Source: Eledone cirrhosa
Lineage: Eukaryota
NCBI GenBank assembly: GCA_964016885.1
Contig: OZ024742.1
Coordinates: 237,274,001 to 237,338,000 of the forward strand
DNA length: 64,000 nucleotides
Direction of reading: 5' to 3'
The translations under genes and the position numbers were made by a program. Below are positions 11,810 to 34,592 of the stretch, one piece after another. Position 1 is the first letter of the stretch. Every line of letters begins with the position of its first letter. The notes beneath the pieces are model-generated. The model worked only from the letters and a program-made list of their open reading frames with translations, was not told where the DNA came from and did no database searches.

Positions 11810-12749
11810 AAAATATCAAAATCTTTCCTGGGATTATATTGTTAGCACATTCCGTAGACATTAACCTTCACCTAAACCTGAACATAATCACTAAACCTAT
11901 ATATTCAGAGCATAATTACATAGTTACAGATGAATCTCCTTCTCTCATAACACATAGCCTGGAAATATAAATACATAGCCTTAAGATAAAACAAATAAAT
12001 AAGTAGATTATTCGAACCAATTCTTTAACATATATGAACTGGAGTGACTGACCACTCTGGTAATTTGATACTTAACCTATTTACCATCCCAAGAATGTCA
12101 GCAAGAATAGCGCCTCCTGCATCCTATCTGCCTACTATAATAACAATCCGAATCATATAACTACTGGAGGGGAATGCCAACACAATGCTAACCCCAGTAG
12201 CATATCAAAAACAAAAACATCACAACTTTCAACTTGTCTGAAGAGAACACATCAAAGGGCTATTATGCAACCACTCTTTAGTATAAAATATTGTATTAGG
12301 GAAAACAACAGGCAAGGAGTGGGGAGAAATTTGAAGAGAGATTTATTTGATTAATTAATCTAACATGTGTTTCATTGCCAATTGCATAATCATCTATGAG
12401 AGCTGCACAGGAATATTTTTTTCTATTCGCTCACTCACATTATGTTTGTAAATAATTATGCATTTGGTAATGAAACACATGTTAGATTATCTAATCAAAT
12501 GTCCCAAGGCTCAGATACCATCAACACTATAAACACAGAGCTGGCATATCTAAGAACTGACTAATTGCCTGATGAGGTCATAGCCATTCAATGGCTATCA
12601 TCGAAATATATATAGCAGTAAATAAAGGATTATGAGTTCATGCAATTGACTTATGTTTCGTCACTATTATAACTCCGGAACTTATATCTTCATTGAGTGC
12701 TCCCTATCCGCATACTGAAGTACTGGATTTTACCAACACTTACTTTCTT

Positions 12750-12752
<3 letters not shown>
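11810..12752 (+). mobile_element. Probable PLE 3' end / pLTR remnant
   Basis: Contains a hammerhead motif and ends at (TA)n; coding similarity is weak. Confidence 0.5.
12564..12619 (+). ncRNA. Type I minimal hammerhead ribozyme
   Basis: ATTGC-CTGATGA-stem II (ATAGCCATT/AATGGCTAT)-GAAA-TATATATA-GCAGT. Confidence 0.75.
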
Positions 12753-12794
<42 letters not shown>

Positions 12795-30685: not shown

Positions 30686-31321
30686 ATCATCATCATCATC
30701 ATCATTTTACGTCCGCTTTTCCCTGCTTGCAAGGGTAGGACGGGTCTTATTCAGCACAGCATCTCTCCACTTGTCACGGTCCTTCGTCATCTCCACCGTG
30801 AGCTTCAGCGATCTGAGGTCTGTTCTCACCACCTCCACCCGCGTCTTCCTTCAACTGGCATTTCCTAGTACTTCTTCACCCATCGGTCATCCTCCATGCG
30901 CATCACATGTCCATACCACCAGTCTCCTCTCTCGTACACTACATTCTATCCCTCTCAGACACATTTTCTCTCTCAACACATTTATGCTGGGTCGTCACGC
31001 ACATTGACATTGCACATCCAACGGAGCATGCTTGCCTCATTTCTCTCCAGCCGTCGCATATCCTCTGCAGTTGCTGCCCATATCTCACTACCATGCAGCA
31101 TTGCGCTCCTCACACAGCCCTCATATAACCGGCCTTTCGTACGCAGGGAGAAACCCTTCTTCATCAGCAGAGGAAGCAGCTCCCTAAACTTCTTCCAACC
31201 CGTCCTTATTCTAGATACTATGGCCTCGGAACACCCCCCTCCCATGCTAATCTGATCACCTAGGTACCGGAAGCTATCCACCACTTCTATAGCACCCGCC
31301 TGCATTTGAAAAATGTGTCTA
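30686..31321 (-). mobile_element. RTE subfamily B 3' fragment
   Basis: ORF 30982-31305; (CAT)n tail abuts (TA)n. Confidence 0.9.
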
Positions 31322-31332
31322 TATATATATAT

Positions 31333-32813
31333 ATCATCATCATCATCATCATACGTCCATATTCCACGCTTGCATGGGTTTGGACGGGAGTTTTCCCACT
31401 AGAGGCAAGAGTGGTTGTCTTGATCGCATAGGACTGTCTGGCTGGTTTTCTACGGCTGGATGCCCTTCCTAACACCACATTTACAGTGTGGAACTGGGAG
31501 TTTTTACCGTGTTACCTACACGGCCACATTACAGCGTGGACTGTGTGTTTTTTTGTCGTGACACCTACACGACCTCATTTGTTTCGGGCTGGATGTTGTG
31601 ACACCAACATAACTTTACATTGAAAGGGGTGGTGTGGATGGGGTGTGGGTAGTGGGACGGGGGTGTATTTTGTTAGAGGTGCCTACTGACTGTAGTAGGT
31701 TTCACTTTGTACTTAGGTAAGGTGGGTCTTCTCTATTACTGTGTAGCGCCAAAGCTCTCGGTCCAGTGACATTGTCTTGGAGAGGTGTAAGTGTGTGAGG
31801 TCGGAATTTATCAAGTCGTCCCAGGTTTTTCTGGGTCTGCCTACTCCGTGGCTACCGTCTATTTTTATTGCCCTGCACTTTTTTATACAGCTGTCGTCTT
31901 TCATGCGCATCACGTGACCATACCAACGTAGTCTTCTCTCGAGTAAACAACATCTGATCCCTCTTATTTCTAATTTCTCCCTTAATTCGTTTATGCTTTG
32001 CCGTTCACGTATATTACTATTACACATCCAGTGGAGCATGCAAGCTTCGTTTCTCTCCAGTCTGCGTATATCCTCTGCACACAATGCCCAGGTCTCACTG
32101 CCATGTAACATTGCTGTTCGTATGCAGGCATCATACAGCCTGCCTTTCATTTTTAGAGAGAACCCTTTAGCGGCCAATAGTGGTATAAGCTCTCTGAACT
32201 TTTTCCATCCCGTTCTGACTCTAGCTACTGTACTTTCAGAGCACCCTCCGCCACTGCTGATTTTATCATCCAGGTAACGGAAGCTGTCCACTATTTCTAT
32301 AGAACCATCTGTGCAATGGAATGAGTTAGTATTCTGTGGGCACTTATTACACCAGAGCACCGGCCACATATAAAATCTATATTCTTAGTTAGCTTACCTG
32401 TGATCCCACTACATCTTTTATGTACCCATACTTTGCATTTGGGACATAAAATGGAGTTTCTACCTACTCCTTTCCTACACACTGACCATGGCCATTTCCC
32501 AGATGGGCCGGTGCCCTATTTTCCTTCCTACAAACTAGAACTTTAGTCTTAGACAGGTTAATTTTAAGGCCTTTTGATTCTAGGCCATGCTTCCATGTTT
32601 GGAATTTCTTCTCTAGTTCAGCCATTGATTCAGCTATGAGCGTTAGATCATCTTCATATAGGAGTTCCCATGGGCAGCCAGTCTTGAACTCCTCTGTTAT
32701 AGCCTGAAGGGCAATAATAAATAGTAGGGGGCTAAGGACGGAGCCCTGATGAACACCAACTTTTATGCTAAACTCTTCACTATATTCGTTGTTAATTCTA
32801 ACCTTGCTGACTG
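31333..32813 (-). mobile_element. RTE subfamily C 3' fragment
   Basis: ORFs 31713-32369 and 32297-32482; (CAT)n tail. Confidence 0.9.
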
Positions 32814-32974
32814 ATATATATATATATATAAGTAGAAGGGGTATTTAATTTGTTGGAAATCCGATAAATATAGATATAAATGTTTATAACTGATTTAGAG
32901 CACTCAACAAGTTCCTGGAGTAAATATTCAATGATATTAAATAAATGGAAACTATATTTATAAAACCATATTTA

Positions 32975-33033
32975 TTTTATTATATATATTTCAAGGGTAC
33001 CAAAGGACTTTGGTACGCTTTCTTCAGATAAAA
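32975..33033 (-). ncRNA. Type I hammerhead ribozyme (mirror copy)
   Basis: Reverse complement of the 33131-33191 motif. Confidence 0.8.
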
Positions 33034-33130
33034 TACAAAGTTTGTTTTATAAATAGAGACATACCCAGGAAGAGCATACCTTATCAGTTGGATACTCTCT
33101 ATCCAGAGAGTATCCAACTGATAAGGGATG

Positions 33131-33191
33131 ATTTTATCTGAAGAAAGCGTACCAAAGTCCTTTGGTACCCTTGAAATATATATAATAAAAT
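33131..33191 (+). ncRNA. Type I hammerhead ribozyme
   Basis: ATTTTAT-CTGAAGA-AAG.GTACCAAAG/CTTTGGTAC.CTT-GAAA-TATATATA-ATAAAAT. Confidence 0.8.
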
Positions 33192-33242
33192 AAATATGGT
33201 TTTATAAATATAGTTTCCATTTATTTAATATCATTGAATATA

Positions 33243-34592
33243 TATGTGTGGGAAGAGTACAACAGATACCCTCTTCTTGGTGAGACAATTGCAAGAGAGG
33301 TTCTTAGAGAAAAATAAACCACTATACTTAGCCTTTGTTGACCTAGAGAAGGCCTTTGATAGGATACCCCAATCTGTCATCTGGTGGTCCCTAAGGAAGC
33401 TAGGTGTTGAGGAATGGTTTGTGAGGACAGTGCAAACTTTGTACAGAGGTACTCTCAGTAAAGTCAGGGTAGGAATGGAGTTTAGTGAGGAATTCTAGAT
33501 ACAAGTAGGAGTACATCAAGGTTCGGTCCTCAGCCCACTCTTATTCATTATAGTCCTCTAAGCCATAACAGAGGAGTTTAAGACTGGCTGTCCATGGGAA
33601 CTTCTCTATGCTGACGATCTGGTTCTTATAGCAGAATCAGTAGAGGAGCTAGAGAATAAATTCTGGCTATGGGAACAGCAGTTGGAATCAAGAGGACTGA
33701 GAGTGAACCTAGCTAAGACAAAAGCGTTGATGAGTAGAAAAGAGGACAAAACTCTGATTCCGTCAGGGAAATGGCCATGTTTGATATGCAGAAAAGGAAC
33801 TGGCATAAATTCTATAAAATGTACACAATGCAGATCCTGGGTACACAAGAGATGTAGCGGGATAGCAGGCAAACTAACAGGTAGGGAGAAATATGTATGC
33901 AGTAGATGTACAGGGAAATTAGACAGTAGAAGTCGCATTGATAGACACATTTTTCAAATGCAGGAGGGCGCTATAGAAGTGGTGGACAGCTTCCGGTACC
34001 TAGGAGATCAGATTAGGAGGAGGGTATTCCGAGGTCATAGTATCTAGAATAAGGACAGGTTGGAAGAAGTTTAGGGAGCTGCTTCCTCTGCTGATGAAAG
34101 GTTTCTCCTTGCGTACGAAAGGCTGGTTGTATGATGCCTGTGTGAGGAGCGCGATGCTGCATGGTAGTGAGACATGGGCAGCAACTGCAGAGGATATGCG
34201 ATGGCTGGAGAGAAATGAGGCAAGCATACTTCGTTGGATGTGCAGTGTAAATGTGCGCGAACGACCCAGCATAAATGTGTTGAGAGAGAAACTGTGTCTG
34301 AGAGGGATAGAATGTAGGGTACGGGAGAGGAGACTGAGGTGGTATGGACATGTGATGCGCATGGAGGATGACTGATGGGTGAAGAAGTGCCAGGAAATGC
34401 CAGTTGAAGGAAGACGTGGTAGAGGTAGACCACGAAAAACATGGGCGGAGGTGGTGAGAACAGACCTCAGATCATTGAAGCTCACGGTGGAGATGACGAA
34501 GGACCGTGACATGTGGAGAGATGGTGTGCTGAATAAGACCCGTCCCACCCTTGCAAGCAGGGAAAAGCGGACGTAAAATGATGATGATGATG

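What the first reader, a model, noticed from the sequence alone, without database searches (positions are those of the whole stretch)
32924..33241. Compact non-coding palindrome with an intact hammerhead on each strand
Seen: ~111-bp inverted arms (32924-33034 / 33131-33241) that look perfect by eye. Each arm holds a canonical CUGAAGA/GAAA type I hammerhead with a palindromic UAUAUAUA stem III. Between them is a second perfect 22-bp hairpin (33079-33126). The unit lies between (TA)n tracts and has no ORF. Known: minimal, dimer-cleaving hammerheads mark PLE pLTRs and retrozymes. Inference: this is a very recent non-autonomous PLE derivative or retrozyme-like unit whose RNA would be rod-shaped and could self-cleave in either polarity. 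The minus copy lies in the host pre-mRNA.
Basis: partly seen in the sequence, partly recalled or inferred. Interest (0 to 1): 0.75.

Follow-up and report, generated by a model that had tools for sequence, protein, structure and literature searches.

The report
Head-to-head Penelope retrotransposon stub pair
The palindrome is real and is two short front-end pieces of a common Penelope-type jumping gene joined head to head, likely laid down in one insertion by two reverse transcriptions of the same RNA, with both ribozyme motifs predicted to be shut off by the long hairpin rather than driving a self-copying circular RNA.

Summary
Observation confirmed: perfect 111-bp arms, a 22-bp inner hairpin, and one type I hammerhead motif per strand. 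The unit is larger than flagged (32831-33241). It is two 5'-truncated ends (pLTRs) of a Hydra-clade Penelope-like element (PLE); longer copies in this genome run into an RT/GIY-YIG frame. It is not a retrozyme: the hammerheads are on opposite strands, centres differ between loci, and both ribozymes are predicted to be buried in the arm duplex in either direction. Across loci the two outer ends are unequal and fixed: one at +180, one at +277 with a 98-nt tail (27 of 28 pairs, no tail/tail pair; 20 of 20 in sister families). The arms share lineage alleles (37 of 50 versus 19% shuffled), 7 of 28 pairs do not overlap, and 5' ends pile up at +1..+15. Best model: twin priming from both target strands on one RNA, running off its 5' end. 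The architecture is textbook PLE; the mechanism is inferred, testable, and was already noted at other loci of this genome.

The parts
32814..32830 (.). (TA)n target tract at the tailed end
   Evidence: sequence; the same junction is seen at other copies
32831..33100 (-). Long ('B') arm: PLE pLTR, element positions +277 down to +9 (+1 = usual 5' stop point)
   Evidence: 94% identical over 278 nt to the upstream pLTR of copy L049
32831..32928 (-). One-sided tail (+181..+277); in tandem copies it runs on to the ORF start at +332
32973..33035 (-). Type I hammerhead motif, minus strand; core 33027-33021, predicted cut after 32981; outer stem I helix retained (to about 33058 and 32952)
   Evidence: cleavage not tested
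33035..33078 (-). Unpaired stretch: 40 nt kept in the long arm and deleted from the short arm, plus 3 arm-to-arm differences next to it
33079..33126 (.). Inner 22-bp hairpin = head-to-head joint of the two 5' ends (+9 and +3, 2-nt overlap at 33099-33100)
33099..33241 (+). Short ('A') arm: pLTR +3..+39 and +75..+180, tail-less end at 33236-33241
33131..33191 (+). Type I hammerhead motif, plus strand; core 33138-33144, predicted cut after 33184; only a 7-bp A-U stem I left
   Evidence: cleavage not tested
33237..33245 (.). Short TA remnant of the target at the tail-less end
   Evidence: sequence
31314..32813 (-). Flanking 5'-truncated non-LTR retrotransposon fragment (RTE-like; name recalled, not from a call); separate insertion
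   Evidence: RT-like frames; 91% to another window copy
33246..34590 (+). Flanking 5'-truncated non-LTR retrotransposon fragment (RTE-like; name recalled); separate insertion

Best explanation
The unit is a single insertion of two 5'-truncated pLTR ends of a Hydra-clade Penelope-like retrotransposon, joined head to head in a (TA)n tract, likely made by twin priming on one RNA. Inferred steps: the element's RT-endonuclease cuts both strands of (TA)n. One DNA end primes at +277 and the other at +180 of the same RNA. Both cDNAs run to the RNA's likely 5' end (about +1) and are joined there by microhomology or filler bases. The 40-nt loss in the short arm came from a slip between ATTTT repeats, during copying or later. 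The hammerheads are passengers of the pLTR. In any read-through RNA they are predicted to be locked in a 111-bp duplex, so the locus would give dsRNA, not a self-cleaving circle.
For: Shown. (1) Parent: copies L026, L028 and L030 continue about 1.1 kb upstream, and L028 and L030 reach the end of a reading frame. L049 has pLTR+tail, ORF start and a second, tail-less pLTR. L033 holds an open RT-to-endonuclease stretch, with 64 homologues at E<=1e-20 and Hydra motifs. (2) Fixed unequal ends: of 47 tail-motif matches on contigs C1 and C2, 28 had a partner arm; 27 partners end at +175..+188, 1 at +156, and none carries a tail (hand tally). All 20 of 20 sister-family pairs picked are tail/no-tail. 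(3) One template: arms agree at common minor alleles in 37 of 50 cases; shuffled mean 0.19, maximum 0.36 in 2000 shuffles (33 pairs). (4) In 7 of the 28 pairs the tailed arm stops at +199..+245 and shares no sequence with its partner, which fold-back copying cannot give without a later deletion. (5) 20 of 47 arm 5' ends between -130 and +180 fall in +1..+15 (p about 1e-14). Copies joined to (TA)n at the ribozyme cut site number only 100 against 17,265 intact. (6) Stem II probability is 0.0 in all 12 growing transcripts tested. Literature: a PLE protein cuts and extends both strands and starts at two internal sites that bound the tail, and uncleaved RNA is its main substrate (PMC11167929, parts 1-2 of 4 read).
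Against: No RNA data, so +1 as the RNA start is inferred; a strong RT stall would look the same. Twin priming is read from genomic products only. 16 of 47 tail ends had no partner arm within about 5 kb, 2 were internal and 1 ran into an N gap. 13 of 50 allele comparisons disagree. The sister pairs were picked by eye as opposite-strand neighbours in the first 100 of 14,203 matches. No read or contig bridged this locus's centre. No tree was built for the Hydra placement, and Pfam gave no direct hit on two parent frames.
Confidence: 0.72

Rival explanations
1. Same PLE origin, but the second arm is a fold-back (self-primed) copy of the first cDNA, trimmed at +180 by the endonuclease when the intermediate is resolved.
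For: It explains shared alleles and centres with microhomology. Self-priming was proposed for head-to-head Penelope palindromes (PMC3846280 passages), and endonuclease resolution for the tail (PMC8557442 passages).
Against: 7 of 28 pairs have non-overlapping arms. Many centres carry filler bases or unequal losses on both sides. Two start sites bounding the tail were mapped in vitro for another PLE.
Confidence: 0.17
2. The palindrome is a non-autonomous unit transcribed whole and re-inserted by the PLE enzyme, with later central deletions hiding a shared centre.
For: Compact palindromes are common: 18 of 47 tail ends, about 75 or more loci for this family by extrapolation from 199 exact matches. 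One other locus (L007) shares the +9/+3 turn-around. Long palindromes are prone to central deletion (recalled, not tested).
Against: L007 carries other lineage alleles and another deletion. Arm lengths form a continuum up to kilobases with the same end rule. There is one ribozyme per strand, and it is predicted to be masked.
Confidence: 0.07
3. The perfect arms are an assembly or library fold-back artefact at this locus.
For: No contig or read bridged 33096-33157 with this locus's sequence; that is inconclusive, since the runs may be other individuals.
Against: The arms are unequal (98-nt tail, 40-nt deletion, 3 differences), have unique flanks, and follow the same end rule as dozens of loci whose arms differ by 2.4%.
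Confidence: 0.04

Closest known systems
Hydra clade of endonuclease-bearing PLEs (Craig et al. 2021, PMC8557442; passages and supplement rows seen)
   Same: C-terminal endonuclease, DKT, CxCx5C linker, CxxC and CxH around the conserved E and N, canonical hammerhead, (TA)n target.
   Different: RWR in place of RWK; unit estimated at about 3.6 kb, not under 3 kb; protein and hammerhead differ by eye from Hydra-1_Obim, so a different family; no tree built.
Typical PLE insertion: inverted 5'-truncated pLTR with a one-sided 30-40-bp tail (PMC8557442 Fig. 2 legend; PMC3846280 passages)
   Same: Head-to-head inverted pLTRs, palindromic joint, tail at one end only.
   Different: No body between the arms; the tail is 98 nt; the tail/no-tail pairing is near-strict and is counted here.
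Poseidon element PAc with two internal RT start sites (Frangieh et al. 2024, PMC11167929; parts 1-2 of 4 read)
   Same: Two fixed 3' ends bounding a tail; AT-rich target; hammerhead close upstream.
   Different: Different clade; both start sites here lie upstream of the ORF start (+332); pairing of the two sites within one insertion is not stated in the parts read.
Animal non-LTR retrozymes (Cervera and de la Pena 2020, PMC7229834 passages; Li et al. 2026 preprint 10.64898/2026.07.22.740005, part 1 of 5)
   Same: Short, AT-rich, non-coding, type I hammerhead, PLE-related.
   Different: Retrozymes are direct tandem repeats with same-strand ribozymes that release circles; here there is one ribozyme per strand in inverted arms.
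LINE-1 twin priming (recalled; no paper read)
   Same: Both target strands prime on one RNA and give a 5' inversion; non-overlapping pairs look the same.
   Different: Here both start sites are fixed and the arms usually overlap, giving a palindrome.

Membership tests
Endonuclease-bearing PLE | Single ORF with RT and C-terminal GIY-YIG-type endonuclease linked to this sequence | tested here: met
   Seen in pieces in different copies (L049 start, L033 RT to end); homologues up to 759 aa, one with PF01541. No intact full copy was found among the 20 loci fetched; direct Pfam scan blank.
Endonuclease-bearing PLE | Partial tandem forming pLTRs | tested here: met
   L049: upstream partial copy of 820 nt at 94% to the 3' end
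Endonuclease-bearing PLE | Hammerhead in the pLTR | tested here: met
   Motif at +82..+136; core and stem III conserved while stem II varies across sister families
Endonuclease-bearing PLE | Inverted 5'-truncated copy and one-sided tail | tested here: met
   tail 98 nt rather than 30-40
Endonuclease-bearing PLE | Target-site duplication | tested here: inconclusive
   Both flanks are TA repeats
Hydra clade | DKG motif changed to DKT | tested here: met
   L049 translation; definition
Hydra clade | RWK motif near the N terminus | tested here: inconclusive
   RWR in L049; homologues show RWR and RWK
Hydra clade | CxCx5C linker; CxxC and CxH around the conserved E and N | tested here: met
   L033 translation and alignment
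Hydra clade | (TA)n insertion preference | tested here: met
Hydra clade | Generally under 3 kb | tested here: not met
   About 3.6 kb, estimated from a 0.33-kb leader, an ORF the size of the homologues and a 1.05-kb 3' region; the paper says 'generally'
Hydra clade | Phylogenetic placement of RT and EN | not tested
   Reference sequences were seen only as supplement text; compared by eye
Non-LTR retrozyme | Two or more direct tandem units, each with a same-strand hammerhead | tested here: not met
   One motif per strand
Non-LTR retrozyme | The same unit amplified to many loci | tested here: not met
   9 of 9 exact-pattern centres differ; of 27 printed centres only L007 shares the window's turn-around, with another deletion
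Non-LTR retrozyme | Expressed, self-cleaved linear and circular RNA | not testable with these tools
   Needs RNA data or bench work

The most novel reading that the evidence does not exclude
Every Hydra-PLE insertion is an obligate asymmetric twin-priming event: an RT-endonuclease dimer starts at two fixed sites (+180, +277) on one RNA, one per target strand, and these compact palindromes are the products in which both runs reach the RNA's 5' end. At that end the RT can realign and re-copy the last 33-35 nt in telomerase fashion, which seeded a satellite array of more than 100 kb in this genome.
Probability: 0.35. Interest if true: 0.62.

Novelty: new member of a known kind. Interest (0 to 1): 0.3.

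Why it matters
As a locus it is ordinary: one of at least dozens of such stubs in its family, among more than 17,000 related hammerhead-bearing pLTR ends in this genome. Its value is as a fossil record of PLE insertion. How the inverted copies and the one-sided tail arise is named as an open question (PMC8557442, PMC3846280 passages). The near-strict tail/no-tail pairing, shared alleles and non-overlapping pairs give a concrete, testable twin-priming model. Such perfect hairpins would also be sources of dsRNA if read through (inference). One full-text search for 'Penelope', 'twin priming' and 'inverted' returned 2 papers, neither about PLE mechanism by title (listing only); the library lacks most subscription papers.

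Tried and rejected
Rfam scan: no family at gathering threshold. Pfam on two parent frames: blank. One search queried the wrong strand of L028 and hit an unrelated repeat, and one search was in the wrong frame; both were discarded. Sequencing runs: no RNA holder listed. Contigs of 4 runs left 33096-33126 uncovered, and no listed piece from 1 contig set or 3 reduced-representation read sets spanned the locus centre; this is no evidence either way. Arm-to-arm gene conversion after insertion: not shown. In 27 short pairs, 52 variant sites were shared by both arms (8 private to the locus) and 86 differed in 3579 columns; in 6 long pairs, 10 (2) and 34 in 905; too few to tell. Twenty duplicate loci were dropped before that count. 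Ribozyme-cut RNA as main template: rejected (100 versus 17,265; a control at another TA-like site gave 8 with a longer, stricter pattern). Apparent exceptions to the end rule were checked: L146 is a tail/no-tail pair plus a separate fragment, and L104 is interrupted by LINE DNA. Neptune or Naiad parent: rejected on motifs and domain order. Host gene around the site: none found. Earlier scan notes near the locus or by sequence: none. Supplements of the bioRxiv preprint were not seen.

Full report
Observation. The two arms at 32924-33034 and 33131-33241 are exact reverse complements over 111 nt, and the inner hairpin 33079-33126 has 22 perfect pairs. The region folds at -217 kcal/mol, z = -30. 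A type I hammerhead descriptor finds one motif on each strand, with predicted cuts after 33184 and 32981, and only one other motif in the window, at 12569. Rfam lists nothing.

True extent and parent. A search of the window's own 3.0-Gb genome gave 3458 candidates, 40 scored. The copies share a sharp end at window 32831 against (TA)n, so the insert is 32831-33241 and its sense strand is the window's minus strand. Three copies continue about 1.1 kb upstream, two of them into the end of a reading frame. That stretch had 1513 candidates. Among 20 loci fetched, L049 shows an 820-nt upstream partial copy, a pLTR running on to an ORF start, and a second pLTR at the 3' end; L033 holds an open RT-to-endonuclease stretch. 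No intact full copy was among the 20. The protein has 64 homologues at E<=1e-20, up to 759 aa long; the two that carry names are from cephalopods, so the host is likely an octopus (inference). Its motifs (DKT, RWR, CxCx5C, CxxC and CxH around E and N) fit the Hydra clade as defined in PMC8557442 (passages; supplement alignment read by eye; alignment). It differs from Hydra-1_Obim. No tree was built.

Anatomy. With +1 set at the usual 5' stop point, the hammerhead core is at +82, the cut at +128, the two 3' ends at +180 (A) and +277 (B), and the ORF start at +332. The window's left arm is +277 to +9 on the minus strand; the right arm is +3 to +39 and +75 to +180 on the plus strand. The inner hairpin is simply the joint of the two 5' ends. 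The 96-nt 'spacer' is that hairpin plus 40 nt lost from the right arm between ATTTT repeats. That loss removes the 5' strand of the outer stem I helix from the plus hammerhead; the minus one keeps it. Both flanks beyond the TA tracts are separate truncated LINE fragments.

Population. An exact 22-mer of the tail occurs 199 times. A 24-mer at the A end occurs 14,203 times and the 3' half of the hammerhead 17,265 times, because several sister families share them. I examined all 47 tail matches on contigs C1 and C2: 28 have an inverted partner arm, 16 have none within about 5 kb, 2 are internal and 1 runs into a gap. Of the 28 partners, 27 end at A and 1 at +156; none is a second tailed end (hand tally; odd cases checked). 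In 18 of the 47, both arms lie within the pLTR, as in the window. Twenty opposite-strand pairs picked from the first 100 matches were all tail/no-tail. In 7 of the 28 pairs the tailed arm stops at +199..+245 and does not overlap its partner. Of 47 arm 5' ends between -130 and +180, 20 lie in +1..+15 (p about 1e-14; list read into). Arms of one locus agree at common minor alleles in 37 of 50 cases, against 0.19 when shuffled. Centres differ between loci: 9 of 9; of 27, only L007 shares the window's turn-around, and it has other alleles and another deletion.

Ribozyme. The core and stem III are conserved while stem II varies across sister families, so the motif is likely maintained in source elements. 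In this locus, a transcript entering from either side makes the antisense arm first. The arm duplex is -165 kcal/mol, and stem II probability is 0.0 in all 12 growing transcripts, against 0.85 for the motif alone. These are equilibrium predictions. Such motifs are reported to need a same-strand partner and to cleave weakly in vitro (PMC4209133 passages). Only an RNA starting at the centre would carry a free motif, and one motif cannot release a circle. Copies joined to (TA)n at the cut site are under 1% of intact ones, in line with uncleaved RNA being the main template for another PLE (PMC11167929).

Mechanism. Shown: PLE origin, fixed unequal ends, shared lineage of arms, non-overlapping pairs, a 5' hot spot, unique centres. 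Inferred: both target strands prime on one RNA, at +277 and +180, run off its 5' end and are joined. This agrees with both-strand cutting and two internal start sites shown in vitro for PAc. The published alternative is self-priming (PMC3846280 passages); it fits shared alleles but not non-overlapping pairs unless later deletion is invoked. Arm-to-arm conversion could not be shown. Public contigs and reads did not bridge this locus's centre, which decides nothing. No host exon was found in the window.

Comparison and novelty. The layout, an inverted truncated pLTR with a one-sided tail, is the described PLE insertion form. It fails the retrozyme definition of direct tandem units. Searches for this family in print found only the Craig paper, and one for PLE twin priming found nothing on the point; all were limited to the open library. 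Earlier notes of this scan on other loci of the same genome reach the same reading. They are unchecked AI notes, not support, but they show the finding is one of many. Verdict: a new family member of a known kind; interest 0.3, carried by the testable insertion model and the satellite noted in passing.

Noticed in passing
G000:C2:232249500-232351000 (L128, L150-L159): A tail-less arm of this family starts at a (TA)n tract, reaches +2, and then its first 35 nt repeat head to tail for more than 100 kb; the far end was not reached. It likely accounts for most of the 1643 reverse matches. It looks like a satellite seeded by re-copying at the RNA 5' end and expanded later.
   Followed up: partly
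L022 (G000:C2:399886076-399886659): Five to six tandem 33-nt repeats of the pLTR head at the centre of a head-to-head pair, restarting at a short microhomology; a small version of the same reiteration.
   Followed up: partly
window 12560-12760 (+): A third type I hammerhead motif (core at 12569) of another family, followed by about 140 nt and a TA run; likely a solo pLTR of a different PLE family.
   Followed up: no
L130-L149 (G000:C1): At least four sister pLTR families share the A-end and stem III sequence, differ in stem II, and follow the same tail/no-tail pairing; over 17,000 ends genome-wide.
   Followed up: partly
L049:4480-4522; L028 and L030, about 100 nt upstream of +1: A long pyrimidine tract ending in AG, like a 3' splice site; several 5' ends map at -82 to -100 (L070, L091, L117). 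It could mark an intron end or a second start.
   Followed up: no
L001, L005, L007, L011, L014, L018, L020: The tail-less arm repeatedly lacks sequence up to +70..+87, just upstream of the hammerhead core, while the tailed arm reaches +1..+9.
   Followed up: no
window 31314-32813 (-) and 33246-34590 (+): Two truncated LINE fragments point their 5' ends at the same TA tract as the PLE stub; 53% of the window is self-repeated.
   Followed up: no
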